Shown piece after piece: positions 11,198-49,052 of a stretch of 64,000 nt of DNA (position 1 is the stretch's first letter; each line of letters opens with the position of its first letter). Location: NCBI GenBank assembly GCA_964411375.1, contig CAYPKR010000003.1:7237-71236 (forward strand). Direction: 5' to 3'. Under the pieces are notes generated by a model that ran no database searches, was not told the origin of the DNA, and worked only from the letters and a program-made list of their open reading frames with translations. The stretch is from an uncultured Candidatus Saccharibacteria bacterium (lineage in GTDB: Bacteria; Patescibacteriota; Minisyncoccia; Phycocordibacterales; UBA12088). Position numbers and translations under genes: made by a program.

Positions 11198-12640
11198 ATG
11201 GATGTTTCGAAACAAAAACTTATTCTCGTAACAGGAGGAGCCGGCTTCATCGGCTCGAATTTGTGTGATCGGTTGGTTATAGGAGGTCACAAAGTTATCT
11301 CACTTGATAACTATTTCGCTGGCTCCAAAGAAAATCATGTCGACGGAGTCGAATATCGTGAAGGACACACCAAAGATATCGAAAAATTAATCCCTGAAAC
11401 GCCAGATATTATTTATCATCTTGGTGAATATTCGAGAGTTGAACAGAGTGTACTTGAGCCGGAAGTTGTTGAAGATTTAAATACTGTCGGCACCACCGCA
11501 GTCATTGAATTTTGGAAGCAGAGAAAATCGAAATTGGTATATGCAGGGTCATCTACGAAATTTGGCGATAACGGCAAGGCACGTGAGGCAACGCCGTATG
11601 CACGAACCAAGGCAGACAATACGGAACGAGTGAAAGCAGTGGGAGAGCGGGAAAAATTACCGTACGCAATTACTTATTTTTACAACGTATACGGTCCCCG
11701 CGAACGCTCCGGCATGTACGGCACCGTTATTGAAATATTCAAACAGATGTATCTCTCCGGTGCGCCACTCACGGTTACGACTCCGGGCACTCAAGAGCGG
11801 AATTTCACTCACGTCGATGATATCGTCGACGGACTCATTGTTGTTGGAGAGAAAGGGGAAGGAGATGAGTTTGGGCTCGGAAACAGTGAACGGTTTACCA
11901 TACTCGAAGTTGCGCATCTTTTTTCCGCTTCGGTCGTGATGCTTCCTCCGCGCGAAGGGAATCGGATGATGAGCGCACTCGATACAACCAAATCATTGTC
12001 CCTTGGATGGCGCGCGAAGAGAACACTTCGAGAATATATTGGCGCGTTTGTATCGGAAAACCACAAAGCAGTCACGCACGACATCCGCATTTTGATATTT
12101 TCAACGACGTTCTATCCAACCATCGGTCCCGCAGAAGAAGCATTGATTACGCTTATGCAAAAAATGCCGCACGTGCAATTTGATGTAATTACTGCTGCAT
12201 TCGATGCTCGGCATTCCGAAACATTGGCACTGCCAATTTCTAATGCAACAGTATATCGGGTGGGATTTGGTAATCGGTTCGATAAATTTTTACTTCCGAT
12301 ACTTGGTGCAAGAAAAGCACGATCGCTTGTCAAGAAACATCGGTACTTATTTGCATGGTCTTTGATGGCAAGCTATGCGACACTTGCTGCGATTTTTTCA
12401 GGGCGCAGAAAAGACTTGCCACTCCTCGTCACGCTCGCCGATCAGCGAATCACCTGGTATACACGCCTCTTTCTCTCGTTTGTACTTACTGGAGCCGATC
12501 AAGTGTATGCAACAATTTCGTCCCACGAAAAATATGTTGCCGGAAAGGCACGTCAGCGTTCTATGGGGCATGGTGACGATTTTGCCAATCAAATCCGCTT
12601 TTCATACCAAAGCATTTTGGCGAAAAATAATACTATATGA
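11198..12640 (+). CDS. NAD-dependent epimerase/dehydratase (UXS-like extended SDR) fused in-frame to an orphan GT-B N-terminal (Glyco_trans_4-like) domain
   Basis: VTGGAGFIGSNL + LDNYFAGSKEN (UXS-like); residues about 300-480 align with N-terminus of downstream GT4 (ILIFSxTYYP...GGAEVA...RIGF). Confidence 0.7.
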   Translation: MDVSKQKLILVTGGAGFIGSNLCDRLVIGGHKVISLDNYFAGSKENHVDGVEYREGHTKDIEKLIPETPDIIYHLGEYSRVEQSVLEPEVVEDLNTVGTTAVIEFWKQRKSKLVYAGSSTKFGDNGKAREATPYARTKADNTERVKAVGEREKLPYAITYFYNVYGPRERSGMYGTVIEIFKQMYLSGAPLTVTTPGTQERNFTHVDDIVDGLIVVGEKGEGDEFGLGNSERFTILEVAHLFSASVVMLPPREGNRMMSALDTTKSLSLGWRAKRTLREYIGAFVSENHKAVTHDIRILIFSTTFYPTIGPAEEALITLMQKMPHVQFDVITAAFDARHSETLALPISNATVYRVGFGNRFDKFLLPILGARKARSLVKKHRYLFAWSLMASYATLAAIFSGRRKDLPLLVTLADQRITWYTRLFLSFVLTGADQVYATISSHEKYVAGKARQRSMGHGDDFANQIRFSYQSILAKNNTI

Positions 12641-13851
12641 AAAAAATTCTTATTTTTTCCCTCACCTATTACCCAAAATTTGTGGGTGGTGCGGAAGTCG
12701 CTATTAAAGAAATCACGAACCGAATTGACCCTTCTGAAATCGAATTTCATATGGTAACGCTTCGGATGGATTCGACGCTTCCCAGGGAAGAAAAGATCGG
12801 CAATGTCATTGTCCACCGGATCGGATTTTCAAAACCGAATCCGACGATGGCGGATTTGAAGCGGTTTCCACTTCATTTCAATAAATTTCTATTTCAGTTC
12901 ACCGCTTTTTTTGCCGCGGCCTCGCTCCACCGTACATATCATTTCGATGCCGTGTGGGGAATGATGGCGCATTCGACGGGCGTGCCTGCCGGTATCTTCA
13001 AAACTTTTTTCCCCAAGGTTTCGTACATCCTGACTTTGCAGGAGGGGGATCCGATTCCGCATATCGAAAAAACCATGCGTCCTCTCTGGCCCCTCTTCAC
13101 CCGCGGTTTCTCAAAGGCCGATGTCATTCAGCCGATTTCGACATTTCTTGGAAAATGGGCAGAAGCGCGCGGATTCAAAGGTAGACTCGAAATTATTCCG
13201 AATGCAGTTAACATCGCGCATTTTTCAAAAGAATATTCGGACGCTGAACTCAAACTGATCAAAGAAGCACTCGAAAAAAAAGACGGTGATATTTTCCTGA
13301 TCACCACTTCAAGGCTCGTGCACAAAAATGCGGTTGATGATGTGATAAATGCATTGCCATCTTTACCAACCCATGTGCATTTTGCAGTACTCGGGATCGG
13401 TCCTGACGAAGAAATGCTTCGCTCGCTGGCAAAAGAAAAGGGCGTGGAGACCCGCGTGCACTTCTTAGGGCAGATTGGCCACGCCGATCTTCCTAAATAT
13501 TTGAAAGCATCCGACATTTTTATTCGGCCAAGTCGATCGGAAGGAATGGGGAATTCATTCATAGAGGCGATGGCATCGGGAGTGCCGGTTATTGCAACGC
13601 AGGAAGGCGGCATTGCAGATTTTCTGTTTGATCCTGAAAAAAATCCTGAACAAAATGCAACTGGTTTTGCGGTTGCCGCAGATTCTCCTGAAGAAATCGC
13701 AAAAAAAACGCGCTGGATTTTGGAACATCCGATTAAAGTATCGAAAATCGGTGAGACTGCTCGAACCATGGTATTTGAAAAATACGATTGGAATCTAATC
13801 GCAAAAAATATGGAAGAGCGAGTGTTCAAACCGGTGTTGACGAAGAAATAA
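12637..13851 (+). CDS. glycosyltransferase family 4 (GT-B)
   Basis: N-terminal Glyco_trans_4-like domain and C-terminal GT1/4 motif SRSEGMGNSFIEAMASGVPVIAT; start overlaps previous stop (ATGA). Confidence 0.8.
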   Translation: MKKILIFSLTYYPKFVGGAEVAIKEITNRIDPSEIEFHMVTLRMDSTLPREEKIGNVIVHRIGFSKPNPTMADLKRFPLHFNKFLFQFTAFFAAASLHRTYHFDAVWGMMAHSTGVPAGIFKTFFPKVSYILTLQEGDPIPHIEKTMRPLWPLFTRGFSKADVIQPISTFLGKWAEARGFKGRLEIIPNAVNIAHFSKEYSDAELKLIKEALEKKDGDIFLITTSRLVHKNAVDDVINALPSLPTHVHFAVLGIGPDEEMLRSLAKEKGVETRVHFLGQIGHADLPKYLKASDIFIRPSRSEGMGNSFIEAMASGVPVIATQEGGIADFLFDPEKNPEQNATGFAVAADSPEEIAKKTRWILEHPIKVSKIGETARTMVFEKYDWNLIAKNMEERVFKPVLTKK

Positions 13852-14290: not shown

Positions 14291-15403
14291 ATGAAGATTC
14301 TTCTGGCAACCCCCCTGTATCCTCCCGAAATTGGTGGTCCGGCAACGCATGCGGAAATTGTAGTCCGCGAGTTTCCCAAACATGGAATCAAGGTGAGGTT
14401 GCTCCCATTTTCTCGCGTGCGATTTCTTCCTAAAATCATCCGACACTTTGCATATTTTATTCTGTGCGTTTGGCATGCAATTGGCGTGGATATTGTGTAT
14501 GCGCTTGATCCGGTGTCAGTCGGATTTCCTGCGTCTCTTGCCGCAAGACTGCTTCGGAAAAAATTGTATCTTCGTGTTCCCGGCGATTATGCATGGGAGC
14601 AAGGTCAACAGCGATATCGCATTATTTTGCCGCTGGATGAATTTGTAGTTGCAAAAAATTTGCCACAAGGAGTTCAGCGACTTCAAAAAATTCAAACCTC
14701 TGTTGCGACAAAGGCAGATGGTGTCATCGTCCCATCAAAATATTTGGGCGGAATCGTAGAAAAATGGGGAATTAATCCTGCAAAAATTAAAGTAGTGTAT
14801 AGTTCCATTCATTTTCCTGAAGCACTTCCAGACAAAAAAGCAGTGCGCGAGAAACTCGGCATCAATGGCCCATACATTGTAAGTGCTGGCAGACTTGTTC
14901 CGTGGAAAGGATTTTCTGCTTTGATTGAGACGATTTCACAACTCAAGGAATCATTTCCAAATAGTATGCTTGGCATTGCTGGAGATGGGCCCGACGCGAC
15001 AATTTTGCGTCAAGGTGCCCTCGATCGGAACGTACAGGACAATGTCCAATTTCTTGGGCGAGTTCCATCTGCTGAACTTCTCGAACATATTGTCGCCGCT
15101 GATATTTTTATTCTGAATACAAATTATGAAGGATTGTCGCACCAGCTAATCGAAGTAATGCATGCAGGAACACCAATCATCACGACCAATGTTGGTGGGA
15201 ACACCGAGCTTATAGAAAACGGTACCGAGGGAACACTCGTAGCGTATAATGATACAAAGGCATTGCAATCGGTGGTTCAATCCATCCTTGCGGATCCGCG
15301 TACTGCAGAGCAAATGGCGAAAGCTGCAAAAGTACATGCTGCTTCGTTTACTGAAGCAAATATGATCCAAGCACTCGTTCCGTTATTCCAATATTCAAAA
15401 TAA
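14291..15403 (+). CDS. glycosyltransferase family 4
   Basis: GT-B architecture; ILNTNYEGLSHQLIEVMHAGTPIITTNVGG C-terminal motif. Confidence 0.8.
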   Translation: MKILLATPLYPPEIGGPATHAEIVVREFPKHGIKVRLLPFSRVRFLPKIIRHFAYFILCVWHAIGVDIVYALDPVSVGFPASLAARLLRKKLYLRVPGDYAWEQGQQRYRIILPLDEFVVAKNLPQGVQRLQKIQTSVATKADGVIVPSKYLGGIVEKWGINPAKIKVVYSSIHFPEALPDKKAVREKLGINGPYIVSAGRLVPWKGFSALIETISQLKESFPNSMLGIAGDGPDATILRQGALDRNVQDNVQFLGRVPSAELLEHIVAADIFILNTNYEGLSHQLIEVMHAGTPIITTNVGGNTELIENGTEGTLVAYNDTKALQSVVQSILADPRTAEQMAKAAKVHAASFTEANMIQALVPLFQYSK

Positions 15404-15407: not shown

Positions 15408-16544
15408 ATGCGCGTTCTCATGATTTCAACTGACCGAGGTATCTTCGATCCGAAGAGTGTCGTCCGCGCGCGAATGATCCAGTACGGGGGCATTGTTGAA
15501 TCGCTGCATATCGTTGTGCTCGCAACAGCAGCGGGACATTTCAAAGATGGGGCGATTGCAGAAAATGTGTTTGTGTATTCGACCAATTCATTCAGTCGAT
15601 ATTTCTATCCGTTTGATGCGATGTGGAAGGCAAAACAACTGCAACTCAAATTTGATATGGTGACTGCCCAAGATCCCTTTGAATGCGGACTCGCTGCGTG
15701 GCGAATTGCAAAGCGAGCGCGCGTACCGTTTGAGCTTCAAGTCCATACTGATTTTGGGAGCAAATATTTTAAACGCGAAAGTGGGCTCAATCGCACTCGC
15801 GTACGAATTGCGAAGATTACGCTTCCGCGCGCAAACGCGGTTCGCGTTGTTTCAGAGCGTGTTGCGGAGGCAGTGCGTCCACTGACGAAAGCATCAGTCA
15901 CGATTCTTCCGATTTTTGTTGATATCAATCAGATAAGTACCACCAATCCATCGTTCTCACTTCGCACCCATTTTCCCGATTTTACATTTATTATTTTGAT
16001 GGCATCAAGATTGGAGCCGGAAAAAAATATTCCGATCGCACTTCGTGCACTCAAAACAGTGATCCAAAAATATCCGAGAACCGGTCTCGTTATTCTCGGC
16101 GAAGGATTTAAAAGAGCGGGACTCGAAGCGGAAGCAAAATCACTCGGAATAGAAGATCATGTGAAATTTCTTGGCTGGCAAAATGATCTGATTTCATATT
16201 ACAAAGGTGCAAGTATGTTTCTTCTGACATCGACATACGAAGGGTACGGTCAGGTATTAGTTGAAGCGGCGGCGGCGAATTGCCCAATTGTTTCAACTGA
16301 TGTTGGAATTGTGGGCAGTATTTTGAAAGACAATGAATCGGTGCTCGTCGTGCCGACCGGGGATGCCGACGCCACCGCCGAGAAAATCGCCGCATTTTTG
16401 ACCAATAACGATCTCCGCCGGAAACTCGCTGTAGGTGCCAGAGACGCTGTTTTTGCCGCAATTCCGGGCAGTTTTGGCGACTCTGTTGCACAAATGAAAT
16501 CCTCATGGGAGCAGATGATTGCGCCCAAAACAGGGACAAAGTAG
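15408..16544 (+). CDS. glycosyltransferase family 4
   Basis: LLTSTYEGYGQVLVEAAAANCPIVSTDVG motif; 378 aa. Confidence 0.8.
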   Translation: MRVLMISTDRGIFDPKSVVRARMIQYGGIVESLHIVVLATAAGHFKDGAIAENVFVYSTNSFSRYFYPFDAMWKAKQLQLKFDMVTAQDPFECGLAAWRIAKRARVPFELQVHTDFGSKYFKRESGLNRTRVRIAKITLPRANAVRVVSERVAEAVRPLTKASVTILPIFVDINQISTTNPSFSLRTHFPDFTFIILMASRLEPEKNIPIALRALKTVIQKYPRTGLVILGEGFKRAGLEAEAKSLGIEDHVKFLGWQNDLISYYKGASMFLLTSTYEGYGQVLVEAAAANCPIVSTDVGIVGSILKDNESVLVVPTGDADATAEKIAAFLTNNDLRRKLAVGARDAVFAAIPGSFGDSVAQMKSSWEQMIAPKTGTK

Positions 16545-16664: not shown

Positions 16665-17666
16665 ATGACGAATGGAATCAATGTCGTGTCAGTCGGAGGA
16701 GGAGGTGCTCATGTCCGCATCGCTCAAGCTGTAAAACTGGTTGGTGAACGATCAGGTTTGCCAATCAACTATGCTGCTGTCGTGGGTTCACTAGATAGTG
16801 GTGGCTCTTCTGGAGAGCGTCGAAAGTACACCGGATGGTGCCTAGGCGATACTCGTCGGGTAGCGTCAGGGCTTATGCCGCCTGGAGTCGCGAAAGAATT
16901 CGAACTCCGTGATTCTGACGGAATAGCCGCTGGACAACTTATCCTTGAGAAATACCTCAAGGGAAGAGATCCTCGAGAAGCAATTCGATTGTTCTGTGAG
17001 GAATATGCGCTTCCAGGTCAGGTTTTCCCCGCAACGTTTACAGACGCGCATGTATTTTTGGAGTGCAACGATCGTACTCGTTTCAACGGTGAAGACGAAA
17101 TTTATAATGCCGATGTCGTCGCTCATGACGGCGTTTGCCGGTTGTGGATTTCTCCCGATACTGTGCCGAATCCTGATGCAGTCGCTGCAATAGGGCAGGC
17201 TGACGTAATCATCATTCCTCCCGGGACACTTCTGTGTTCCCTGAAGCCAACGATTATGACTGTGCGAGACGCGCTTCTTGCAAGCGATGCAACGTTCATC
17301 TGCTTTCCAAATCTATTCAATCGACAGAAGCACATGTTGCATAGCGCAACCGTTGACGATCACCTCGCGCTCATCGAAGAAGATTTGCGTCCAGGGATCA
17401 TTGATCATGTGTGCATTAATACCGCACCGTTTCCGGATGAGATCCTGCGTCTATATGGCGACGAGGCAAAAGCGCCGTCGTATGTGCTGAGCGCTGCCGG
17501 ACGGAATGTCCATGGCGCCGACCTCGTTGACGGGGAAGTAAATGTCTACCAACAAAGTGATGTTATCGCTGGGCTCCGCTCTCCGATGTCGCATCACTTC
17601 CCGTCAGTAGCACAAATACTCGATTCTATCTTCCGGCAAATTCTTACTCCGGGAGTGTACCAATGA
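16665..17666 (+). CDS. YvcK/CofD (UPF0052, 2-phospho-L-lactate transferase-like) family protein
   Basis: VVSVGGGGAH N-terminus and DSGGSSGERR motif matching the DDGGSSGRLR signature of YvcK/CofD; higher GC than neighbours. Confidence 0.6.
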   Translation: MTNGINVVSVGGGGAHVRIAQAVKLVGERSGLPINYAAVVGSLDSGGSSGERRKYTGWCLGDTRRVASGLMPPGVAKEFELRDSDGIAAGQLILEKYLKGRDPREAIRLFCEEYALPGQVFPATFTDAHVFLECNDRTRFNGEDEIYNADVVAHDGVCRLWISPDTVPNPDAVAAIGQADVIIIPPGTLLCSLKPTIMTVRDALLASDATFICFPNLFNRQKHMLHSATVDDHLALIEEDLRPGIIDHVCINTAPFPDEILRLYGDEAKAPSYVLSAAGRNVHGADLVDGEVNVYQQSDVIAGLRSPMSHHFPSVAQILDSIFRQILTPGVYQ

Positions 17667-21348: not shown

Positions 21349-21352
21349 CTCT

Positions 21353-43239: not shown

Positions 43240-43995
43240 ATGAAACACGAGCGAATCCTCGGGATAATCCCCGCACGACTTAATTCAACAAGACTTCCCG
43301 GCAAAATGCTTCTCGATATGCTCGGGAAGCCTTTGATTGTGCGCACCTACGAGCAAGCAAAAAAAGCGTCGATGCTTGATGACGTAGTCGTTGCGACTGA
43401 TTCTCCGGAAATCAAAGCGGCAGTTCACGCATTTGGCGGGAAGGTACTCCTTACTTCATCAAAACCAAAAACGGGGAGTGATCGAGTCGCAGAAGCCGCA
43501 GCAAAATTTCGTGACTTCAGACCCGACATCGTACTTAATATCCAAGGCGATGAACCTTTGATGCCGTCTGCCGCAATAAATACGACTGCAAAACTCCTCC
43601 TTGGCGAAAAGCGCGCAGTCATGTCGACTGTTGCGTCGCGTTTCACAAAGGAGAGTGAGCTTTTGGAACCTGGACTCGTCAAAGTCGTCATCGACAAAAA
43701 TGGATACGCACTCTACTTTTCCCGCTCGGTAATTCCACATCCTCGCGTCCCGGTGCCAATTGAAAACTACTTCAATCACATCGGTATTTACGGATACAAA
43801 GCTGATTTTTTGAAACAATATGTGAAGCTTAAACAAACACCGCTCGAGCTTGCGGAATCCTTGGAACAACTTCGCGCGCTTGAAAATGGATTTGAAATAA
43901 AAGTCGGCGTGGGGAAGTTTGAACGCGCGGAAGTGAACGAAGCGCATGAATTCAAACGAGCGCTTGAGATGATGCGAGGGCGCGGACGCGTATAA
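43240..43995 (+). CDS. KdsB-family CMP-sugar synthetase (3-deoxy-manno-octulosonate cytidylyltransferase-like)
   Basis: GIIPARLNSTRLPGKML, NIQGDEPL motifs diagnostic of KdsB/NeuA cytidylyltransferases. Confidence 0.8.
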   Translation: MKHERILGIIPARLNSTRLPGKMLLDMLGKPLIVRTYEQAKKASMLDDVVVATDSPEIKAAVHAFGGKVLLTSSKPKTGSDRVAEAAAKFRDFRPDIVLNIQGDEPLMPSAAINTTAKLLLGEKRAVMSTVASRFTKESELLEPGLVKVVIDKNGYALYFSRSVIPHPRVPVPIENYFNHIGIYGYKADFLKQYVKLKQTPLELAESLEQLRALENGFEIKVGVGKFERAEVNEAHEFKRALEMMRGRGRV

Positions 43996-44002: not shown

Positions 44003-45463
44003 ATGGAATTCGGAAAGCCTGATGTCTGGGACTATAAAGCACACCAAGTGCTGATTGCCAAAATAAACGCGCTCACTATTCGGGGAGTACCGCTTAGGGA
44101 TGCATTCGAAATCGGTGGGTATAATGCGTGGCAGTGGTATCAAGGACTATTGTTTGAGTCGATAAAATGGCGCGTCGTTGACGGGGTGACGCCTTCGTAT
44201 GATCTGCTTTCGTATAAGCGAATGCTCTATGAAATAGCAAAACTCAAAATTTTTTTCTACATTTCACTTCTTGGATTCCTCGGGGCACTCATTCGCCGAC
44301 CGAAAGCCCTCCTCTACAGCATTGATCTTAAAAATTCTCGCTTTAAAGGAGATCAGCGAATTACTCCGGTGTATGACGCATTCTTGCGCACTCATACGCG
44401 ATTTGTGGAATGCTTTCATGTCGGAAGAGGAAGGAAGACATTCTATAATTGGATAGGTCGGGGACGACTATCCCTCTATCTCGAAGGGATCGATGCATTC
44501 TTTTTATTTTGGAGTATGCTCCGCCAATCTCCTATGCGTTCCGAATTTGCCGCAATTGATTTTTCTTCCATTCCTGAACGTGATCGCCCGCTTGCGCAAA
44601 AAGTTGTACGGAATCTGATCTATCGAATTGAACTTTCCAAAATGCGGATCCGCGTCTTCCGCCGCATCTTTCGTGCTCTCCGACTTCAAAAAATATTTTT
44701 GATTGATGACCCGCGCCATTTTTGGGAATTGATTGCCGCAGGGAAAGCAGAGGGAATTGAAACGATCGCACTTGAGCACGGACATTACACCCGCTATCAA
44801 CTTGGCCTCTTTCAATTTCCTCAAAGTCGCTACCCATACCTATCACCTGACATGCTATTGGTGTGGAGTGAATATTGGAAGCATGAACTCGAAAAATATC
44901 ATTCGGTATTTTCAAATATCACGGTTGCCGGATACAAAAGTCCAATTCCAGATGAAGTGCACCACAGACCAATCGGCGAAAAACTTCGAGTACTCGTGCC
45001 ATATGAAAGTGTAGCGCCAAAAGAGGCTGTGCGTACCTATCTCAAATTACTTTCGGCAGATCCTACGGTTTCAATCGTATTTAAACCAAGACCTGATTCT
45101 TCTGTAGATGAACAAATTCGCGACTATGTGCTCAACTCGGATTTAGTAACGGTTCTCGAAGCTCTTCCCAAAAATCCGCGCGATGTGTGTGATATTGCAA
45201 TTGGCACCTACACGACTCTGTTGTCGGAATTGGTTATGCAGGGTGTTCCGGTCGCTCTCCTTGAAACCCCAATGGATTATGGAGATGGTCTTGTGGAAAA
45301 TGGGATTGCGGGACGACTTCAGTTTGAACCTGTCTCATCTCTTACAGAAAGACTTCGCGTACTTGCTGCAATTGATCCCGCAGAAATTGCGCGCCGCAGA
45401 ACTGTGATTACGGGAAACGCAAATCAGATGATGGCAGATGAAATTGTCCGTATCCTTAGATAG
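44003..45463 (+). CDS. hypothetical protein with N-terminal TM segment; possible CMP-sugar/phosphosugar transferase (GT-B-like)
   Basis: 486 aa, one hydrophobic helix (FFYISLLGFLGALI), downstream of KdsB-like gene; family not identified. Confidence 0.4.
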   Translation: MEFGKPDVWDYKAHQVLIAKINALTIRGVPLRDAFEIGGYNAWQWYQGLLFESIKWRVVDGVTPSYDLLSYKRMLYEIAKLKIFFYISLLGFLGALIRRPKALLYSIDLKNSRFKGDQRITPVYDAFLRTHTRFVECFHVGRGRKTFYNWIGRGRLSLYLEGIDAFFLFWSMLRQSPMRSEFAAIDFSSIPERDRPLAQKVVRNLIYRIELSKMRIRVFRRIFRALRLQKIFLIDDPRHFWELIAAGKAEGIETIALEHGHYTRYQLGLFQFPQSRYPYLSPDMLLVWSEYWKHELEKYHSVFSNITVAGYKSPIPDEVHHRPIGEKLRVLVPYESVAPKEAVRTYLKLLSADPTVSIVFKPRPDSSVDEQIRDYVLNSDLVTVLEALPKNPRDVCDIAIGTYTTLLSELVMQGVPVALLETPMDYGDGLVENGIAGRLQFEPVSSLTERLRVLAAIDPAEIARRRTVITGNANQMMADEIVRILR

Positions 45464-46733
45464 ATTCTGCGGAAATATCTTTGTACGTTGCAAAGAGTAC
45501 AATAACCACGATAAGTTTAAATGCTTCACTCACAATGCGGGAAATAATCATTCCCATAAATCCGCCGAGCATAATCCCCGTAAACAAAATGCCAATCGTG
45601 CCGATCTGTGCAATTACATTGTATACATAGAGTCGCGGATGATTTTTGGTTACTTGAAGCGATGTCATCGGAATAATTCCCGCAGTTGAAAAAATAATCA
45701 TGATCGCATAAATCTGCGAGTAGGGGATTGCCTCAATATATTTGGGAAAAAATGCGTGGAAAATAATGGGCGCGACCAATGCATACGCGACCACCGCGCT
45801 CACGGTGAGGAACGTCACTTGGAGCAGTCGTCGGGGAAGAGCGGTCTTGGTTTCGGTAACACTGCGTGCTGACAATTTAGGAAGCATCAGTGAATAACTA
45901 TTTTTGAGAACTCCGCGAATTTGTTCAGGGAGCGCCGTCGCAAAGGTGTAGAGCGCAAGTTCCGCCGCACCCAAATAATGAAACACCAAAATTGAATCGA
46001 TTTGTTCCGCGAGTCCGCCCAAAATCCCCATGATACTCAAATGCGTGCCGAAGCGGATGGATTCACCACCTGTTAACACCGTTGCGGGATAGCGTTTCAG
46101 TGTACGGAGATACAGATAGAGTGAAATGAGTGCATTTGTTGTATAGTAGGTGAAAATAATCGCGACGACATTGTGGGTGATAAGCACAATGCCGATCAAA
46201 AATGGAATTGGAAAAACAGTTCGCGCAATTGCGTAGGTTGTGAGCGAAAAGAAATCGCGAATACCATTTAAGAATGATTGATAGAGTAGTGATGCGTTCC
46301 AAAAAGGAAGCGCGATCGCGGTGATGAGGAGACTCAAGCCTAATGTGTGGTTTCCGTGGACAAAATAGTAGGCGCCGCTTAAGAAGCCTACGATCGCCAT
46401 TGGAATCGAGCCTTTGAGACTTGCACGAAACGCGATTGGCATTTCCCCGTGATTTCCTTCAGCGACTGATTGCACTACAGAGATTGCAAGTCCAGTTAGA
46501 GAAAAAGTGGTAAGAAGTCCTGCGAGACTCAAAATATATTTGTACTGTCCGTACACTTCCTTGGGAACTAGATTGGCGAAGACAACCGCAAGTGCGAGCA
46601 TGGCAAGGGCGCTCACCACTTGGTTGATAAATAAAAGTGACCCGCCTTTAGCGAGATAGACGAGGTCAGTTTTGACGTAGGGTTCGAGGGCTCGAAGCAC
46701 GCGATAGAGCCATGATTTCGGATCGGCTTCCAT
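45456..46733 (-). CDS. Wzx-like polysaccharide/oligosaccharide flippase (MOP superfamily)
   Basis: about 12 TM, about 425 aa, typical Wzx N-terminal (LAKGGSLLFINQVVSAL); start at internal ATG (MEADPKSW) to avoid overlap with divergent gene. Confidence 0.7.
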   Translation of the reverse strand: MEADPKSWLYRVLRALEPYVKTDLVYLAKGGSLLFINQVVSALAMLALAVVFANLVPKEVYGQYKYILSLAGLLTTFSLTGLAISVVQSVAEGNHGEMPIAFRASLKGSIPMAIVGFLSGAYYFVHGNHTLGLSLLITAIALPFWNASLLYQSFLNGIRDFFSLTTYAIARTVFPIPFLIGIVLITHNVVAIIFTYYTTNALISLYLYLRTLKRYPATVLTGGESIRFGTHLSIMGILGGLAEQIDSILVFHYLGAAELALYTFATALPEQIRGVLKNSYSLMLPKLSARSVTETKTALPRRLLQVTFLTVSAVVAYALVAPIIFHAFFPKYIEAIPYSQIYAIMIIFSTAGIIPMTSLQVTKNHPRLYVYNVIAQIGTIGILFTGIMLGGFMGMIISRIVSEAFKLIVVIVLFATYKDISAESI

Positions 46734-46838
46734 GAATAGTACAACTATACCGTAGACACGGGCGTTTCCAGAGCAAGGTAAGGTGTAATATCGGCACGGA
46801 GGAAGCCATCTGTCTAGTTCGCTGAAGGCCGAGCCTTC

Positions 46839-49052
46839 ATGGTATATTTCGCCCATATGGACACAACGCGATTCCTTCGCTACAGCATCTTCACGATGCT
46901 CTTTTGTATACCCTTTATCCCTCTTATCGTTCTTAACGGCACTTTCTTCCCATTTATCGTAGGGAAAAATTTCGCGTTCCGTATCTTTGTTGAAATCGCG
47001 CTCGGGCTATGGGTTGCGCTCATGCTCGTTGATCGCTCATACCGTCCAAAACTTTCTCCGGTCTTCTGGTCGGTCGTCGCCTTTGCGGTCGCGATTTTTG
47101 TGGCCGATCTTTTCGGAATGAATTTCTGGAAGAGTTTCTGGAGCAATTTCGAGCGCATGGAAGGGTACATCACGATACTCCATCTTTTCGCATACTTCGT
47201 CGTTGCCTCATCGGTATTTAATACCGAAAAACTCTGGCATCGATTCTTCAATACGAACCTCGCGGTGTCAGTTTTGATCTCGATCTTCGGACTCTTTCAG
47301 CTTGCTGGCTGGTTTACGATCAACCAAGGCGGTGTGCGTCTCGACGGTACGTTCGGCAACGCAACATATCTCGCGATTTATATGGTCTTCAACCTTTTTA
47401 TTGCTGCATGGCTCATGCTTTCCTACAAAGGGAAGAGTCTCAAGTGGGTGCGCGGCATTTACGGAGCAATTATTCTTCTTGAATTGGTCATTCTCTTCTA
47501 CACCGCAACGCGTGGTGCGATCCTCGGTCTCATCGGTGGTGTATTTCTATCGGCAATTCTCCTTGCGCTCACCATGCGAGGCAATCCGCATATTCGAAAA
47601 ATTTCCTACGGCACCATAATCGGACTCGTCGTTTTGGTTGGTGGCTTTATGCTCATCAAAAATACGAGCTTTGTTCAGCACAACGAAGTACTCAGTCGTC
47701 TTGCAACCATTTCGCTCGAAGGTGGTCAGACGCGTTTCGAAGTTTGGAACACCGCGTGGCAGGGAGTAAAAGAGCATCCAATTTTTGGATGGGGACAGGA
47801 AAACTTCATCTATGTTTTCAACGAGCATTACAATCCGAACATGTACGCCCAGGAAGCGTGGTTTGATCGCGTGCATGACGTCGTTCTTGATTGGCTGATT
47901 GCCGGAGGCCTTGTCGGACTCATTGCGTATCTCTCGATGTTTGGCGCAGCGCTCTTTGGGCTGTGGTTTTCGAAACGATCAAAGGATGCATTTTCGCCAC
48001 TTGAACGCAATTTGATCACCGGTCTTTTTGCAGGGTATTTCTTCCACAATATCTTCGTCTTCGACAACATCTTGAGTTATATCCTCTTCTTCTCTCTGCT
48101 CGCCTTCATTCATTATCGTCTGACGACCAAAGGTTTGGATCCTGATCTTTCCGATAAGCGTGCGAAGGGAACTGGTCTTCCAGCCCAGGTAGTATTGCCA
48201 GTCTCGCTGGTACTCACCGTGGTCATATTCTATTTCGCAAACTGGAACGGCATCATGACGAACGTAACCTTGATCAAGGCAATCTCTCCGGCAGAAGGTG
48301 GTGTCGCACAAAATCTCGAATACTTCAAAAAAGCAATTTCCTACCACGGCCTCGGTATGCAGGAAGTGAAAGAGCAGCTTTTGCAGACTGGCATTACGGT
48401 GTCGCGTGCAAACGGTGTTGATGCAAAACTCAAACAAGATTTCCTCACCTACGCAAGAACACAGATGGATGAAGAGCTGGTAAGCAATCCAAATGACGCA
48501 CGCCTCCAGGTCTTCATGGGCTCATTCCTAAGCGGTGCTGGAAGTCCTGAAGAAGCGCTTCCATATCTCCAAAAAGCAATCGAGCAATCACCATCAAAGC
48601 AGATCATTCTCTTCGAGCTCGGTCAGACACAAATTCAGCTTGGCAAGTACCAAGATGCAGTCGCGACCTTCAAAAAAGCATACGAGCTCGCGCCAGCTTT
48701 CCAACAAGCAGCGGTTAATTACGCAGCAGCGCTCATTTATGCAGGGAATCTGGATGGTGCATCGAAGATTTTGACCCCGCTTTTCGGTACGATGGCAGTC
48801 AACAACGATCAATTGCTTGCCGCATACTACGCAAGCAAGCATTACGATCTTGTTCTCCAGATTTGGCAGGCGCGTGTTGCGTCAGATCCAAACAATCTTC
48901 AATATCACGTCTCACTTGCTGCCGCATACTTAGTTTCTAATCGCCGCGCAGACGCAATTTCTGAACTTCAGAAGGCAGAAGCACTTGATGCGACATTCAA
49001 ACAGCAAGCAGATTATTACATCTCGGAAATTCGCGCCGGCAGAAACCCGTAA
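46839..49052 (+). CDS. O-antigen ligase/Wzy-like domain membrane protein with C-terminal TPR repeats
   Basis: Wzy_C-like segment (FYTATRGAILGLIGG, multiple TM) then TPR-like helical repeats (ALPYLQKAIEQSP..., AVATFKKAYELAP...). Confidence 0.7.
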   Translation: MVYFAHMDTTRFLRYSIFTMLFCIPFIPLIVLNGTFFPFIVGKNFAFRIFVEIALGLWVALMLVDRSYRPKLSPVFWSVVAFAVAIFVADLFGMNFWKSFWSNFERMEGYITILHLFAYFVVASSVFNTEKLWHRFFNTNLAVSVLISIFGLFQLAGWFTINQGGVRLDGTFGNATYLAIYMVFNLFIAAWLMLSYKGKSLKWVRGIYGAIILLELVILFYTATRGAILGLIGGVFLSAILLALTMRGNPHIRKISYGTIIGLVVLVGGFMLIKNTSFVQHNEVLSRLATISLEGGQTRFEVWNTAWQGVKEHPIFGWGQENFIYVFNEHYNPNMYAQEAWFDRVHDVVLDWLIAGGLVGLIAYLSMFGAALFGLWFSKRSKDAFSPLERNLITGLFAGYFFHNIFVFDNILSYILFFSLLAFIHYRLTTKGLDPDLSDKRAKGTGLPAQVVLPVSLVLTVVIFYFANWNGIMTNVTLIKAISPAEGGVAQNLEYFKKAISYHGLGMQEVKEQLLQTGITVSRANGVDAKLKQDFLTYARTQMDEELVSNPNDARLQVFMGSFLSGAGSPEEALPYLQKAIEQSPSKQIILFELGQTQIQLGKYQDAVATFKKAYELAPAFQQAAVNYAAALIYAGNLDGASKILTPLFGTMAVNNDQLLAAYYASKHYDLVLQIWQARVASDPNNLQYHVSLAAAYLVSNRRADAISELQKAEALDATFKQQADYYISEIRAGRNP

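What the first reader, a model, noticed from the sequence alone, without database searches (positions are those of the whole stretch)
11198..49052. About 38-kb surface-glycan biosynthesis island with paired AsnB-type amidotransferases and paired compact UDP-sugar dehydrogenases (uronamide sugar signature)
More than 30 consecutive genes are devoted to glycan assembly. Besides many GT4/GT2 enzymes, the island has two asparagine-synthase-family amidotransferases (22760-24631, 30621-32447) and two nucleotide-sugar dehydrogenase-like genes (18325-19161, 34336-35292), one of which is followed by a UXS-like decarboxylase/epimerase. In O-antigen and capsule loci, AsnB homologs (e.g. WbpS-type) amidate uronic acids made by UDP-sugar dehydrogenases. 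So the island plausibly makes an amidated, methylated heteropolysaccharide or protein glycan. GtrA/GtrB and DPM1-like polyprenyl-phosphate GT2s plus a Wzx flippase and an O-antigen-ligase/TPR protein imply lipid-linked assembly and en-bloc transfer to a surface acceptor.
Basis: partly seen in the sequence, partly recalled or inferred. Interest (0 to 1): 0.55.

Follow-up and report, generated by a model that had tools for sequence, protein, structure and literature searches.

The report
Surface-glycan gene island in Patescibacteria
A 38-kb run of 34 genes in an ultra-small (Patescibacteria/CPR) bacterium builds cell-surface sugar chains, plausibly with amidated sugar acids, and uses short sugar-oxidising enzymes that lack the domain that normally holds the nucleotide-sugar substrate.

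Summary
Positions 11198-49052 carry 34 consecutive genes, and almost all have glycan-assembly domains. Both AsnB-type amidotransferases and both short UDP-sugar-dehydrogenase-like genes sit at the stated coordinates.

The window comes from a Patescibacteria (probably Paceibacteria) genome. The island lies between peptidoglycan genes (MurC/MurD and MurB).

Both dehydrogenases keep the catalytic Lys/Asn/Cys/Asp. Both lack the whole C-terminal UDP-binding domain. This is a family trait: hundreds of CPR homologues are 275-360 aa. It is not a truncation, and the window encodes no separate C-domain.

Both AsnBs have an intact glutaminase Cys and PP-loop. They score nearest the WbpS/WbqG family (TIGR03108) but below its cutoff, and far from E. 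coli-type AsnB.

Comparative loci show four modules:
- a conserved core, SDR-GT4a-GT4b-GT4c-DH1-GT4d;
- an Arn/Gtr-like module, GtrA-ArnC-like GT2-AsnB1-GT-C, where the GT-C fold was newly recognised;
- a DH2-SDR cassette with C-methyltransferase and cupin;
- Wzx plus a Wzy_C/TPR protein.

AsnB genes sit beside compact dehydrogenases in some genomes but are accessory (10 of 80 loci). The uronamide reading is plausible, not shown. DH2's product is probably processed further rather than amidated. Verdict: an ordinary kind of locus with unusual enzymes.

The parts
11198..12640 (+). SDR480: extended-SDR epimerase/dehydratase domain (residues 9-250) plus a ~190-aa C-terminal region resembling the N-half of a GT4
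   Evidence: Pfam Epimerase E 2e-38. The C-terminal region is 28% identical to GT4a residues 3-136. It is the first gene of the conserved core in many Paceibacteria loci.
12637..13851 (+). GT4a glycosyltransferase (core)
   Evidence: Glycos_transf_1 E 2e-34. Homologues occur in 64/80 DH1 loci.
14291..15403 (+). GT4b glycosyltransferase (core)
   Evidence: Glycos_transf_1 E 5e-37. Found in 62/80 loci.
15408..16544 (+). GT4c glycosyltransferase (core)
   Evidence: Glycos_transf_1 E 5e-38. It is the gene immediately upstream of DH1 in 27 loci. Natural GT4c::DH1 fusions exist, P0312 and P0318.
16665..17666 (+). CofD/YvcK-like protein
   Evidence: Pfam CofD E 8e-31. NCBIfam YvcK subfamily scores 89 bits, below the cutoff of 196. 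PDB UPF0052 proteins match at E 2e-15. It recurs in CPR glycan islands: L001, L004, L009, L024, L036.
17663..18190 (+). 175-aa protein, only faint HAD-hydrolase similarity
   Evidence: NCBIfam HAD TIGR02253 E 0.007. Co-located with CofD in L009 and L021.
18325..19161 (+). DH1: compact two-domain UDP-sugar-dehydrogenase-like enzyme (278 aa)
   Evidence: Pfam N-terminal and central domains only. TIGR03026 positions 71-293 of 413, 120 bits, below the cutoff of 190. The catalytic motifs EMAKYIHN and GGACFIKD are kept. AF2 pLDDT 95; Foldseek top hits are UGDHs with TMq ~0.8 and TMt ~0.5.
19164..20213 (+). GT4d glycosyltransferase, coupled to DH1 (2-nt gap)
   Evidence: Glyco_trans_1_4 E 2e-15. It is the gene immediately downstream of DH1 in 24 loci. 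Natural DH1::GT4d fusions exist, P0311 and P0313.
20206..21348 (+). GT4e glycosyltransferase
   Evidence: Glyco_trans_1_4 E 2e-17.
21296..21802 (+). GtrA-type small membrane protein (the likely start is the ATG at 21353)
   Evidence: GtrA_DPMS_TM E 9e-24. Alternative starts are listed.
21799..22749 (+). GT2a: polyprenyl-phosphate sugar synthase of the ArnC/GtrB/DPMS class, with 2 C-terminal TM helices
   Evidence: Full-length match to ArnC structures (E 8e-53), GtrB sll0501 (1e-37) and DPMS (8e-19). NCBIfam ArnC scores 197 bits, below the cutoff of 529. TM helices.
22760..24631 (+). AsnB1: glutamine-dependent amidotransferase (623 aa)
   Evidence: Asn_synthase E 3e-101. Starts MCG (Cys2); PP-loop SGGIDS at residue 258. 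TIGR03108 scores 557 bits, below the cutoff of 817. The order GtrA-GT2-AsnB-membrane protein is also seen in L010 and L169.
24700..26499 (+). GT-C-fold membrane glycosyltransferase (599 aa), with no Pfam family
   Evidence: No Pfam or PDB sequence hit. AF2 pLDDT 93. The top 29 Foldseek hits are all GT-C enzymes: AftA at E 5.5e-8, then DPY19, STT3/PglB and ArnT. An acidic residue in the first loop is conserved in 44/46 homologues. The family is sometimes fused to GtrA.
26509..27387 (+). SAM methyltransferase MTa
   Evidence: Methyltransf_23 E 3e-28.
27384..29129 (+). Second multi-TM protein (581 aa), a weak paralogue of the GT-C
   Evidence: 23% identical to 24700-26499, E 2e-5. At least 10 TM helices. 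An orthologue lies in L009.
29108..29863 (-). GT2b, soluble family-2 glycosyltransferase
   Evidence: Glycos_transf_2 E 5e-26.
29868..30515 (-). SAM methyltransferase MTb
   Evidence: Methyltransf_31 E 6e-19.
30621..32447 (+). AsnB2: glutamine-dependent amidotransferase (608 aa)
   Evidence: Asn_synthase E 2e-78. Cys2 is present; PP-loop at residue 255. TIGR03108 scores 459 bits, below the cutoff. Orthologues of 520-660 bits lie 0-3.5 kb from DH1 in several CPR loci.
32404..33663 (+). GT4f glycosyltransferase. The likely start is the ATG at 32449, directly after the AsnB2 stop.
   Evidence: Glyco_trans_1_4 E 2e-14. An AsnB-GT pair is also seen in L007 and L090.
33401..34270 (+). SAM methyltransferase MTc (start uncertain)
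   Evidence: Methyltransf_11 E 2e-10.
34336..35292 (+). DH2: second compact dehydrogenase family (318 aa)
   Evidence: Central domain E 2e-12. TIGR03026 positions 2-298 of 413, 98 bits, below the cutoff. GGHCLPKD and IKYLSN motifs are present. Only 26% identical to DH1.
35326..36312 (+). SDR328: extended SDR, either a UXS/ArnA-like decarboxylase or a 4,6-dehydratase (unresolved)
   Evidence: Epimerase E 4e-53. PDB hits to a dTDP-glucose dehydratase (5e-30) and human UXS1 (7e-28). The motif is TSSNE with Asn where RmlB has Asp. It directly follows DH2 in 5 of 5 loci.
36336..37091 (-). Classical short-chain dehydrogenase/reductase (candidate keto-reductase)
   Evidence: adh_short E 1e-26. An SDR lies in the same cassette in L008.
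37061..37618 (-). NUDIX hydrolase
   Evidence: DUF4916 and NUDIX hits. Conserved next to DH2-SDR in L007 and L008.
37784..39019 (+). NDP-sugar C-methyltransferase
   Evidence: Methyltransf_14 E 2e-39 and Methyltransf_13 E 9e-15. Found in the cassette in L007, L008 and L170.
39048..39443 (+). 131-aa cupin (CapF C-terminal type), candidate keto-sugar epimerase/isomerase
   Evidence: PF14667 E 5e-8. No TM helices. The sequence is cupin-like. The L170 orthologue also hits Cupin_2.
39468..40589 (+). GT4g glycosyltransferase
   Evidence: Glycos_transf_1 E 3e-32.
40605..41249 (+). Class I methyltransferase (Methyltransf_24)
   Evidence: E 9e-16.
41254..42111 (-). GT8-like glycosyltransferase (weak)
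   Evidence: Glyco_transf_8 E 2e-5.
42252..43226 (+). PhyH-like Fe/2-oxoglutarate dioxygenase (weak)
   Evidence: PhyH E 2e-4, at the cutoff.
43240..43995 (+). KdsB-type CMP-ulosonic-acid synthetase
   Evidence: CTP_transf_3 E 5e-58. NCBIfam KdsB NF003952 scores 277 bits, above the cutoff of 193.
44003..45463 (+). 486-aa protein of unknown family, candidate GT-B transferase for the CMP-sugar
   Evidence: Only faint hits: Glyco_transf_4 (E 0.006) and polysialyltransferase (E 0.16). No PDB hit. Capsule_synth proteins occupy a similar position in L008 and L169.
45456..46856 (-). Wzx/MOP-family flippase
   Evidence: Polysacc_synt E 3e-13. At least 8 TM helices.
46839..49052 (+). Wzy_C (O-antigen-ligase/polymerase-like) membrane protein with a C-terminal TPR domain
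   Evidence: Wzy_C E 1e-18 plus TPR families. 12 TM helices. The same gene sits at the island end next to MurB in L043, and at the locus end in L170.

Best explanation
The region is the main cell-surface glycan locus of a Patescibacteria (CPR, probably Paceibacteria) bacterium. It occupies a fixed chromosomal site between peptidoglycan genes and has four modules.

1. Conserved core (SDR480, GT4a, GT4b, GT4c, DH1, GT4d, GT4e). It assembles a backbone oligosaccharide at the cytoplasmic face. DH1 is a two-domain relative of UDP-glucose dehydrogenase and supplies a hexuronic acid by NAD-dependent thiohemiacetal/thioester chemistry on Cys224.

2. Arn/Gtr-type side branch. The ArnC/GtrB-like GT2a loads a sugar on polyprenyl phosphate. 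GtrA helps it cross the membrane. One or two GT-C enzymes (24700, 27384) transfer it to the glycan outside the cell. AsnB1 is embedded in this module.

3. Sugar-tailoring cassette (DH2, SDR328, SDR251, NUDIX, C-methyltransferase, cupin, GT4g). It turns a nucleotide sugar, via a uronic acid and/or a 4-keto intermediate, into a C-methylated sugar. A KdsB-activated ulosonic acid and several O/N-methylations are added as well.

4. Export and attachment. Wzx flips the lipid-linked unit. The Wzy_C/TPR protein polymerises it or ligates it en bloc to a wall or protein acceptor.

The two AsnB homologues are active glutamine-dependent carboxyl amidotransferases. They adenylate a sugar carboxylate and convert it to the amide with ammonia from glutamine. 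Their most likely substrate is the uronic acid derived from DH1, giving a uronamide as WbpS/WbqG do.

Shown here: domain content, catalytic residues, folds, synteny and fusions. Inferred: substrates, the order of steps, the uronamide product and the acceptor.
For: - Domain content of all 34 genes.
- Organism and site: DH homologues are all from Patescibacteria. The flanks are MurD/MurC upstream and MurB/SecA downstream. The same flanks appear in other species.
- Dehydrogenases: catalytic Lys/Asn/Cys/Asp are invariant in both families. The DH1 model has pLDDT 95 and its best structural matches are UGDHs, including Cj1441 of the C. jejuni glucuronamide pathway.
- Core module: GT4c is immediately upstream of DH1 in 27 loci and GT4d immediately downstream in 24, out of 74 scored loci. 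Natural GT4c::DH1 and DH1::GT4d fusions exist.
- Arn/Gtr module: GT2a matches ArnC at E 8e-53 and GtrB at 1e-37 over its full length. GtrA is present. The 599-aa protein is GT-C by fold, has a conserved acidic residue in its first loop, and its family is sometimes fused to GtrA. In L170 a PMT_2 protein occupies the equivalent slot.
- AsnBs: Cys2 and the PP-loop are intact. They are nearest to TIGR03108, the family of WbpS and WbqG, for which genetic evidence of uronamide formation exists.
- AsnB-DH linkage: AsnB lies 3 nt from a compact DH in L004 and 56 nt in L032. AsnB is within 3.5 kb of DH1 in 7 of the 10 loci that have one (binomial P 0.026 against uniform placement).
- Outside CPR, canonical UGDH genes lie next to long-form AsnB homologues in L128, L157, L094 and L092.
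- GatB is present in the window, so a tRNA-dependent route for Asn/Gln charging exists.
Against: - Neither compact dehydrogenase has the C-terminal domain that binds UDP in every characterised family member. Both fail the TIGR03026 cutoff. No activity is known for either family.
- Both AsnBs fall below the TIGR03108 cutoff.
- AsnB is accessory: it is present near DH1 in only 10 of 80 species, and AsnB1 is not seen within the 10 kb held downstream of DH1 in the closest relative, L009. One AsnB2 orthologue (L089) has GT4c and GT4d but no DH1 between them.
- DH2 is invariably coupled to an SDR that may remove or transform the carboxyl group.
- No priming phosphoglycosyltransferase, no nucleotide-sugar pyrophosphorylase and no LCP ligase lie in the window.
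- The island may encode more than one product, so proximity of AsnB and DH genes need not mean a shared substrate.
Confidence: 0.55

Rival explanations
1. The AsnB homologues do not act on the glycan. They are either the cell's asparagine synthetases or LtsA/AsnB1-type enzymes that amidate the peptidoglycan stem peptide. Their place in the island reflects the neighbouring peptidoglycan genes.
For: - Both pass the broad TIGR01536 'asparagine synthase (glutamine-hydrolyzing)' cutoff (486 and 470 bits against 267).
- The island is flanked by a racemase, MurD, MurC and MurB.
- AsnB genes are dispensable for the conserved core (70 of 80 loci lack them).
Against: - They lie 11-20 kb from the Mur genes, inside blocks of glycosyltransferases.
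- AsnB1 keeps the order GtrA-GT2-AsnB-membrane protein in L010 and L169, and AsnB2 abuts a GT4.
- The E. coli-type AsnB model matches only in fragments, at ~300 bits against a cutoff of 499.
- GatB is present in the window.
- 22 of 33 long metagenomic loci with homologues carry GT4 neighbours.
Confidence: 0.12
2. The compact dehydrogenases do not make nucleotide-linked uronic acids for amidation. The AsnBs amidate a different carboxylate, such as the KdsB-activated ulosonic acid or an acidic substituent. DH1 and DH2 act on other substrates, or their products are fully consumed by decarboxylation.
For: - The UDP-binding domain is absent from both families, and no separate copy is encoded in the window.
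- DH2 is always followed by a UXS/ArnA-like SDR.
- A bona fide KdsB is present.
- AsnB and DH co-occur only loosely.
Against: - The complete UGDH catalytic set is invariant in both families, which argues for the same four-electron oxidation to a carboxylate.
- AsnB is directly adjacent to a compact DH in L004 and L032.
- Canonical UGDH genes sit next to AsnB homologues in other phyla.
- KdsB is absent from the 80 DH1 loci, including the 10 that have AsnB.
Confidence: 0.22
3. The 38 kb is not one pathway. It is a mosaic of at least two or three independent glycoconjugate systems: a conserved core polymer or glycolipid, a variable Gtr/Arn-type decoration or protein O-glycosylation system, and a tailored-sugar cassette. 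On this view 'two AsnB plus two dehydrogenases' is a coincidence of co-location.
For: - The core SDR-GT4a-b-c-DH1-GT4d is conserved across many species, while everything downstream varies.
- The DH2 cassette occurs in other arrangements and without AsnB.
- DH1 and DH2 are only 26% identical, and AsnB1 and AsnB2 only 35%.
Against: - There is a single Wzx and a single Wzy_C protein, at a conserved island end.
- Gene spacing is tight and mostly on one strand.
- Conserved ends with a variable middle is also how single-product O-antigen and capsule loci are built (general knowledge).
Confidence: 0.3

Closest known systems
WbpS/WbqG uronamide pathway (P. aeruginosa O6, E. coli O121; PGN_1234 in P. 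gingivalis; H. pullorum N-glycan)
   Same: An AsnB-family, glutamine-dependent amidotransferase is encoded in a glycan locus together with a UDP-sugar 6-dehydrogenase and glycosyltransferases. TIGR03108 is the best or near-best model for both window proteins.
   Different: - Scores are below the TIGR03108 cutoff.
- The partner dehydrogenases are two-domain forms without the UDP-binding domain.
- The host is a monoderm CPR bacterium without LPS.
- AsnB1 sits in a GtrA-GT2-GT-C module rather than next to a WbpO/WbpP pair.
Canonical UDP-glucose/GDP-mannose 6-dehydrogenases (e.g. S. pyogenes HasB 1DLI, C. jejuni Cj1441 7KWS, P. aeruginosa AlgD 1MFZ)
   Same: They share the Rossmann N-domain, the central helical domain, the PEF motif and the catalytic Lys/Asn/Cys/Asp. 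The fold match has TM ~0.8 over the query.
   Different: The whole C-terminal nucleotide-sugar-binding domain (about 110-130 aa, PF03720) is missing in every one of 240 listed homologues. The N-domain of DH1 is shortened (profile positions 1-70 are compressed into 38 residues). DH1 has a family-specific PVHKGGRGAGG loop before the catalytic Cys.
Arn (ArnC/ArnE-F/ArnT), GtrABC and S. mutans Pgf three-component glycosylation systems
   Same: All combine a polyprenyl-phosphate sugar synthase with two C-terminal TM helices, a GtrA-type small membrane protein and a GT-C transferase acting outside the membrane. In Arn, a Ugd plus ArnA-type SDR pair supplies the donor, which is analogous to DH2-SDR328.
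   Different: - The GT-C belongs to no described sequence family.
- An AsnB amidotransferase is inserted in the module.
- No aminotransferase or formyltransferase is present.
- The acceptor is unknown.
B. subtilis teichuronic acid operon (tuaA-H)
   Same: It is a monoderm wall-polymer locus combining a UGDH (TuaD), GT4 and GT2 enzymes, a Wzx-like exporter (TuaB) and a Wzy_C-type protein (TuaE). This comparison rests on general knowledge; weak NCBIfam hits to TuaD and TuaG appear.
   Different: The hits are far below the equivalog cutoffs (46 against 700, and 38 against 400). No TuaA-type priming transferase is present. The window locus has many more tailoring enzymes.
C. jejuni HS:2 capsule glucuronamide pathway (Cj1441 UGDH plus ATP-grasp amidoligases)
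   Same: A uronic acid is made by a UGDH and then converted to an amide. Related CPR islands carry an ATP-grasp, PIG-L and HAD set where this island carries AsnB. Cj1441 is the top structural match of DH1.
   Different: The amide-forming enzyme class differs: AsnB-type here, ATP-grasp there. The C. jejuni dehydrogenase has three domains.

Membership tests
UDP-glucose/GDP-mannose 6-dehydrogenase family (Pfam PF03721+PF00984+PF03720; NCBIfam TIGR03026) | N-terminal NAD-binding Rossmann domain | tested here: met
   DH1 scores 58.8 bits on PF03721 (cutoff 27) and has GFIGQGFVG. DH2 scores 25.8 bits, just under the cutoff, but has an invariant GFGWVGQ motif. The DH1 fold was confirmed.
UDP-glucose/GDP-mannose 6-dehydrogenase family (Pfam PF03721+PF00984+PF03720; NCBIfam TIGR03026) | Central domain with the catalytic Cys in GGxCxxKD, plus Lys and Asn on the long helix | tested here: met
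   DH1 has K164, N168, C224 and D228. DH2 has K176, N180, C233 and D237. All are invariant in 44 and 40 homologues.
UDP-glucose/GDP-mannose 6-dehydrogenase family (Pfam PF03721+PF00984+PF03720; NCBIfam TIGR03026) | C-terminal UDP/GDP-binding domain (PF03720) | tested here: not met
   It is absent from both proteins and from all 240 listed homologues. The models end at profile position ~295 of 413. No separate C-domain ORF is found in the window by tblastn or HMM.
UDP-glucose/GDP-mannose 6-dehydrogenase family (Pfam PF03721+PF00984+PF03720; NCBIfam TIGR03026) | Score at or above the curated TIGR03026 cutoff (189.8 bits) | tested here: not met
   DH1 scores 120.1 bits and DH2 98.2 bits.
UDP-glucose/GDP-mannose 6-dehydrogenase family (Pfam PF03721+PF00984+PF03720; NCBIfam TIGR03026) | Two-fold NAD+-dependent oxidation of C6 of a nucleotide sugar | not testable with these tools
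   This needs an enzyme assay.
WbpS/WbqG-type uronamide-forming amidotransferases (NCBIfam TIGR03108 eps_aminotran_1) | Class II glutaminase domain with an N-terminal Cys nucleophile | tested here: met
   Both proteins start MCGI. GATase_7 E-values are 8e-45 and 2e-48. R44, N70 and D93 (AsnB2 numbering) are invariant.
WbpS/WbqG-type uronamide-forming amidotransferases (NCBIfam TIGR03108 eps_aminotran_1) | PP-loop (SGGxDS) adenylating synthetase domain | tested here: met
   SGGIDS lies at residue 258 in AsnB1 and 255 in AsnB2. The motif is invariant in alignment A2.
WbpS/WbqG-type uronamide-forming amidotransferases (NCBIfam TIGR03108 eps_aminotran_1) | Score at or above the curated cutoff (816.9 bits) | tested here: not met
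   The scores are 556.7 and 458.8 bits, with full-length alignments.
WbpS/WbqG-type uronamide-forming amidotransferases (NCBIfam TIGR03108 eps_aminotran_1) | Phylogenetic grouping with WbpS, WbqG and PGN_1234 rather than with AsnB or LtsA | not tested
   Reference sequences could not be obtained with the tools. Only model scores were compared.
WbpS/WbqG-type uronamide-forming amidotransferases (NCBIfam TIGR03108 eps_aminotran_1) | Conversion of a hexuronic acid residue to the uronamide | not testable with these tools
   This needs biochemistry or glycan mass spectrometry. Support from gene context only.
Housekeeping asparagine synthetase B (NCBIfam NF006949) | Score at or above the cutoff (499 bits) with a full-length alignment | tested here: not met
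   The scores are 299.7 and 293.7 bits, split into 3 stretches.
Gtr/Arn-type three-component extracytoplasmic glycosylation | Polyprenyl-phosphate sugar synthase (GT2 with C-terminal TM hairpin) | tested here: met
   GT2a matches ArnC at 8e-53, GtrB at 1e-37 and DPMS at 8e-19 over its full length. It has 2 C-terminal TM helices.
Gtr/Arn-type three-component extracytoplasmic glycosylation | GtrA-family small membrane protein | tested here: met
   PF04138 scores 84 bits (cutoff 26).
Gtr/Arn-type three-component extracytoplasmic glycosylation | GT-C-fold transferase | tested here: met
   The AF2 model has pLDDT 93. The top 29 Foldseek hits are GT-C enzymes, the best at E 5.5e-8 with TM 0.54. The first-loop acidic residue is conserved. 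There is no match to any sequence family.
Wzx/Wzy-dependent polysaccharide pathway | Wzx flippase and a Wzy/Wzy_C-type membrane protein | tested here: met
   PF01943 scores 50 bits and PF04932 68 bits.
Wzx/Wzy-dependent polysaccharide pathway | Initiating phosphoglycosyltransferase in the locus | tested here: not met
   No Bac_transf or MraY/WecA-type domain was found in any of the 49 ORFs that were scanned; five short ORFs downstream of the island were not scanned. The enzyme may be encoded elsewhere.

The most novel reading that the evidence does not exclude
Patescibacteria may have replaced the canonical three-domain UDP-sugar dehydrogenase by two families of two-domain enzymes that no longer bind the nucleotide themselves. 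On this reading DH1 works as part of a GT4c-DH1-GT4d assembly, which in some genomes is literally fused. It either borrows the nucleotide-binding Rossmann domain of the neighbouring glycosyltransferase, or it oxidises a hexose after that sugar has been added to the lipid-linked glycan. Uronic acids, and after AsnB action uronamides, would then be made at the level of the growing glycan rather than of the nucleotide sugar. That would be a new route to acidic and amidated surface glycans.
Probability: 0.2. Interest if true: 0.7.

Novelty: new variant of a known kind. Interest (0 to 1): 0.4.

Why it matters
CPR/Patescibacteria are a large, mostly uncultured part of bacterial diversity. They live attached to other cells, so their surface chemistry is central to their biology, yet no paper in the searchable library described these loci.

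This locus gives a concrete, testable parts list:
- a core conserved across species (SDR-GT4x3-DH1-GT4d) at a fixed site between peptidoglycan genes;
- a hypervariable middle, a layout that suggests strain-specific surface variation;
- two uncharacterised enzyme families.

The two-domain dehydrogenases pose a clear enzymological question: how is a nucleotide sugar bound, or what replaces it, when the UDP-binding domain is gone? The GT-C family, which no Pfam or NCBIfam model detects, adds to the known extracytoplasmic glycosyltransferases. If the AsnB enzymes make uronamides, they would let these cells tune surface charge.

None of this overturns current concepts. It extends known pathways into a poorly known phylum.

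Tried and rejected
- Exact look-up of the window's DH1 in the contig index found nothing. The source is a 73,650-bp NCBI/Logan contig.
- Rfam and tRNA scans of the window found nothing.
- Idea: the compact dehydrogenases are truncated pseudogenes. Rejected. Both belong to large, length-conserved families with invariant catalytic residues.
- Idea: the missing C-terminal domain is a split gene. Rejected for this window. tblastn gave no hit better than E 0.65, and an HMM of five canonical C-domains gave no hit.
- Idea: the 131-aa ORF at 39048 is a flippase remnant, because of the Pfam name Polysacc_synt_C. Rejected. It has no TM helix, its sequence is cupin-like, and it is conserved at 128-132 aa beside the C-methyltransferase.
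- Sequence searches of the 599-aa and 486-aa proteins against the PDB, and relaxed Pfam searches, gave nothing useful. Only structure prediction resolved the 599-aa protein.
- The metagenome scan with the AsnB alignment returned mostly distant, non-CPR homologues (33-38% identity). It served only as a context sample.
- SDR328 could not be assigned to decarboxylase or 4,6-dehydratase.
- A tree against WbpS, WbqG and LtsA could not be built, because no reference sequences were reachable.
- Literature searches for CPR glycan loci or short UGDH forms found nothing relevant.
- GC profile: there is no compositional sign of a foreign island.

Full report
**Observation check.** From 11198 to 49052 there are 34 consecutive genes, 28 on the + strand, and nearly all carry glycan-assembly domains:
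- seven GT4, two GT2 and one GT8-like glycosyltransferase;
- five methyltransferases, one of them a sugar C-methyltransferase;
- three SDR enzymes, GtrA, a Wzx flippase and a 12-TM Wzy_C/O-antigen-ligase-like protein with TPR repeats.

The two AsnB genes (22760-24631, 30621-32447) and the two dehydrogenase-like genes (18325-19161, 34336-35292) are exactly where stated. GC content is flat across the island (0.44-0.50). No RNA genes were found in the window.

**Organism and chromosomal setting.** All close homologues of the dehydrogenases and of the 599-aa membrane protein come from Patescibacteria: Paceibacteria/Parcubacteria, Kaiser-, Nomura-, Adler- and Zambryskibacteria. The window's own proteins are on record from a 73,650-bp NCBI/Logan contig. 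The flanks encode a racemase, MurD, MurC, a TP-methylase, a TraG/VirD4-like ATPase and an LTD/PKD surface protein upstream. MurB, SecA, Obg and GatB lie downstream. In 80 loci from different GTDB species fetched through DH1, the same left flank (MurC, TP-methylase, TraG-like) and right end (Wzy_C/TPR, MurB, SecA) recur. The island therefore sits at a fixed site, with conserved ends and a variable middle.

**The compact dehydrogenases.**
- DH1 (278 aa) and DH2 (318 aa) are only 26% identical to each other. They represent two separate families.
- Each matches only the N-terminal and central domains of the UDP-glucose/GDP-mannose dehydrogenase family. The TIGR03026 alignment stops near position 295 of 413, and both score below its cutoff (120 and 98 bits against 190).
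- Alignments to solved UGDHs show the PEF motif, the Lys/Asn helix and the GGxCxxKD catalytic loop.
- The catalytic residues are invariant in 44 DH1-type and 40 DH2-type homologues: K164/N168/C224/D228 and K176/N180/C233/D237.
- None of the 240 listed homologues (276-358 aa) carries the C-terminal domain PF03720.
- A profile search of 1.84 billion representative proteins finds 405 clusters at E<=1e-30. Most of the listed full-length matches are 255-310 aa.
- The window encodes no separate C-domain.
- An AlphaFold model of DH1 (pLDDT 95) superposes on UGDHs with TM about 0.8 of the query but about 0.5 of the target. That is the N-terminal and central domains only.

So 'compact' is a real, conserved and unusual architecture, not a truncation. 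No description of it was found in the searchable literature.

**The AsnB homologues.** AsnB1 and AsnB2 are 35% identical. Both start with the glutaminase nucleophile (MCG) and keep the SGGIDS PP-loop.

| NCBIfam model | AsnB1 (bits) | AsnB2 (bits) | Cutoff (bits) |
|---|---|---|---|
| TIGR03108 (XrtA/PEP-CTERM EPS amidotransferase) | 557 | 459 | 817 |
| TIGR01536 (broad asparagine synthase) | 486 | 470 | 267 |
| NF006949 (E. coli-type AsnB) | ~300, in three fragments | ~294, in three fragments | 499 |

According to PMC7468200, P. aeruginosa WbpS and E. coli O121 WbqG are members of TIGR03108, and deletion of the P. gingivalis homologue abolishes the uronamide. PMC6025236 gives matching genetic evidence in H. 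pullorum. GatB in the window shows that a tRNA-dependent Asn/Gln route exists.

**Are AsnB and the dehydrogenases linked?**

*Evidence for linkage*
- An AsnB gene lies 3 nt upstream of a DH1-type gene in L004 and 56 nt upstream in L032.
- AsnB2 orthologues (520-660 bits) lie one to three genes from DH1-GT4d in L011, L022, L034, L069 and L090.
- In 7 of the 10 loci with a true AsnB, it is within 3.5 kb of DH1. The binomial P is 0.026 against uniform placement.
- Outside CPR, canonical 430-470-aa UGDH genes lie beside long-form AsnB homologues in several metagenomic loci.
- 22 of 33 long metagenomic loci with AsnB homologues have GT4 neighbours.

*Evidence against an obligate pairing*
- Only 10 of 80 DH1 loci have an AsnB within 10 kb.
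- The closest relative, L009, keeps the core, the GT-C genes and MTa. No AsnB1 is seen within the 10 kb held downstream of DH1.
- L089 has GT4c-GT4d-AsnB2 with no DH1 between them.

AsnB is thus an accessory tailoring gene, not an obligate partner.

**Modules.**

*Core.* The order is SDR480-GT4a-GT4b-GT4c-DH1-GT4d(-GT4e). GT4c is the immediate upstream neighbour of DH1 in 27 of 74 scored loci and GT4d the immediate downstream neighbour in 24. Natural fusions GT4c::DH1 (P0312, P0318) and DH1::GT4d (P0311, P0313) exist. So do fusions of DH with an SDR, a GT2, a 9-TM domain and an APS kinase. In this window and in L009, a CofD/YvcK-like gene and a small HAD-like gene are inserted before DH1.

*Arn/Gtr-like branch.* GtrA is present. 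GT2a aligns full-length to ArnC (8e-53), GtrB (1e-37) and DPMS (8e-19) and has two C-terminal TM helices. AsnB1 follows. Then comes the 599-aa protein, which has no sequence family. Its model (pLDDT 93) hits only GT-C enzymes: AftA at 5.5e-8, then DPY19, STT3/PglB, ArnT, AftB and ALG9. It has a conserved acidic residue in its first loop, and its family is occasionally fused to GtrA. A weak paralogue follows at 27384. The same order, GtrA-GT2-AsnB-methyltransferases-membrane protein, is found in L010 and L169. In L170 a PMT_2 protein fills the GT-C slot.

*Tailoring cassette.* The genes are DH2-SDR328-SDR251-NUDIX-C-methyltransferase-cupin-GT4g. DH2 is directly followed by, or overlaps, the SDR in all five loci examined. 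SDR328 is as close to UXS1 and ArnA as to 4,6-dehydratases. It carries Asn where RmlB-type dehydratases have the catalytic Asp; the RmlB residue is from general knowledge. The 131-aa protein is a CapF-type cupin, not a flippase fragment.

*Ulosonic-acid genes.* KdsB passes the NCBIfam cutoffs. It is flanked by a PhyH-like protein and a 486-aa protein with faint GT-B signals.

*Export and attachment.* These are Wzx and the Wzy_C/TPR protein.

No priming phosphoglycosyltransferase lies in the island.

**Most likely mechanism.**

*Shown here:* domain architectures, catalytic residues, folds of DH1 and of the GT-C, synteny and fusions.

*Inferred:*
- The core GT4s build a lipid-linked oligosaccharide.
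- DH1 provides a hexuronic acid through UGDH chemistry.
- One or both AsnBs adenylate a sugar carboxylate and amidate it with glutamine-derived ammonia, giving a uronamide as in WbpS/WbqG systems.
- DH2 plus SDR328 feed a 4-keto or decarboxylated intermediate to the cupin, the C-methyltransferase and a reductase, to give a C-methyl sugar.
- GT2a, GtrA and the GT-C enzymes add a side-branch sugar outside the membrane.
- Wzx flips the unit, and the Wzy_C/TPR protein polymerises or ligates it to a wall or protein acceptor.

My probabilities are about 0.95 that this is a surface-glycan locus, about 0.45-0.5 that a uronamide is made, and about 0.55 for the overall account.

**Rival explanations.**
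- AsnBs as Asn synthetases or peptidoglycan amidotransferases: 0.12.
- AsnBs acting on another carboxylate, with the compact dehydrogenases doing something else: 0.22.
- A mosaic of independent systems, so that the 'pairs' are coincidental: 0.30. This partly overlaps the main account.

**Comparison with known systems.** The locus works like a combination of four things: a Wzx/Wzy-type locus, an Arn/Gtr/Pgf-type three-component branch, a WbpS-type amidation step, and (for a monoderm) a teichuronic-acid-like acidic polymer pathway. It is not a strict member of TIGR03026, TIGR03108, or the ArnC, TuaD and TuaG equivalogs, because all curated cutoffs are missed. The defining C-terminal domain of the dehydrogenase family is absent.

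**Novelty and interest.** The kind of system is known. The variants are the two families of two-domain dehydrogenases, their fusions with flanking GT4s, and a GT-C family invisible to the Pfam and NCBIfam models used here. A specialist would find the missing UDP-binding domain curious rather than astonishing. I rate interest at 0.4. The most novel reading still open is that oxidation occurs on a glycosyltransferase-bound or lipid-linked sugar rather than on a free nucleotide sugar. I give it probability about 0.2 and interest 0.7 if true.

Noticed in passing
window 7796-9622 and 9645-11159: A TraG/VirD4-like ATPase (DUF87, TraD/VirD4 weak hits, with a long charged C-terminal tail) lies immediately upstream of the glycan core. 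Next to it is a secreted LTD+PKD protein with a Ser/Thr/Pro-rich linker and a C-terminal TM anchor. Homologues occur in 22/80 and 15/80 related loci. The surface protein could be a glycosylation acceptor, and the ATPase may belong to the CPR type IV secretion or pilus machinery.
   Followed up: partly
window 11198-12640: The first island gene is an SDR epimerase fused to a ~190-aa region resembling only the N-terminal half of a GT4 (28% identity to GT4a residues 3-136). The meaning of this half-GT-B domain is unknown.
   Followed up: partly
window 16665-18190; also L001, L004, L009, L024, L036, L041, L079: A CofD/YvcK-like protein, sometimes with a small HAD-like protein, recurs in CPR glycan islands, often directly upstream of DH1. 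CofD enzymes transfer a phospho-group from a nucleotide-diphospho donor, and YvcK binds UDP-GlcNAc (per its NCBIfam name). It could be a regulator or a phosphodiester-forming transferase.
   Followed up: partly
window 39048-39443: This 131-aa ORF hits Pfam 'Polysacc_synt_C' but is a soluble cupin of the CapF C-terminal type. It is conserved at 128-132 aa beside the C-methyltransferase in L008 and L170. The Pfam name is misleading, and the ORF is easily mistaken for a flippase fragment.
   Followed up: yes
window 42252-45463: A KdsB that passes the NCBIfam cutoffs sits in a bacterium expected to lack LPS. It is flanked by a PhyH-like dioxygenase and a 486-aa protein with faint polysialyltransferase/GT-B similarity. 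No KdsA, KdsC or KdsD is in the window. Related loci have KpsC/KpsS-like Capsule_synth proteins near their CTP_transf_3 gene (L008, L169).
   Followed up: partly
proteins P0311-P0313, P0318, P0319, P0331, P0365, P0397, P0402, P0436, P0441: Compact DH1-type domains occur fused to GT4d, GT4c, an SDR epimerase, a GT2, a 9-TM membrane domain, an APS kinase and a Ddl-like ATP-grasp. One homologue has an intein inserted exactly at the catalytic GG-C-xPKD motif. Some of these fusions could be gene-calling artefacts.
   Followed up: partly
L001, L002, L003, L006 (Nomurabacteria and relatives): Related islands carry an ATP-grasp (PylC-like), PIG-L deacetylase and HAD set instead of AsnB. Others carry sulfotransferases (L004, L007). 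This suggests alternative ways of modifying the same conserved core glycan.
   Followed up: no
window 55957-57369: GatB, a subunit of the Asp/Glu-tRNA amidotransferase, is present. This implies tRNA-dependent Asn/Gln formation and lessens the need for a housekeeping asparagine synthetase.
   Followed up: no
window 49000-51000 and 57000-61000: GC content drops to 0.38-0.42 just outside the island: in the MurB-SecA intergenic region, and around two paralogous genes of unknown function (57713-58546 and 59692-60789, whose N-termini are 48% identical).
   Followed up: no
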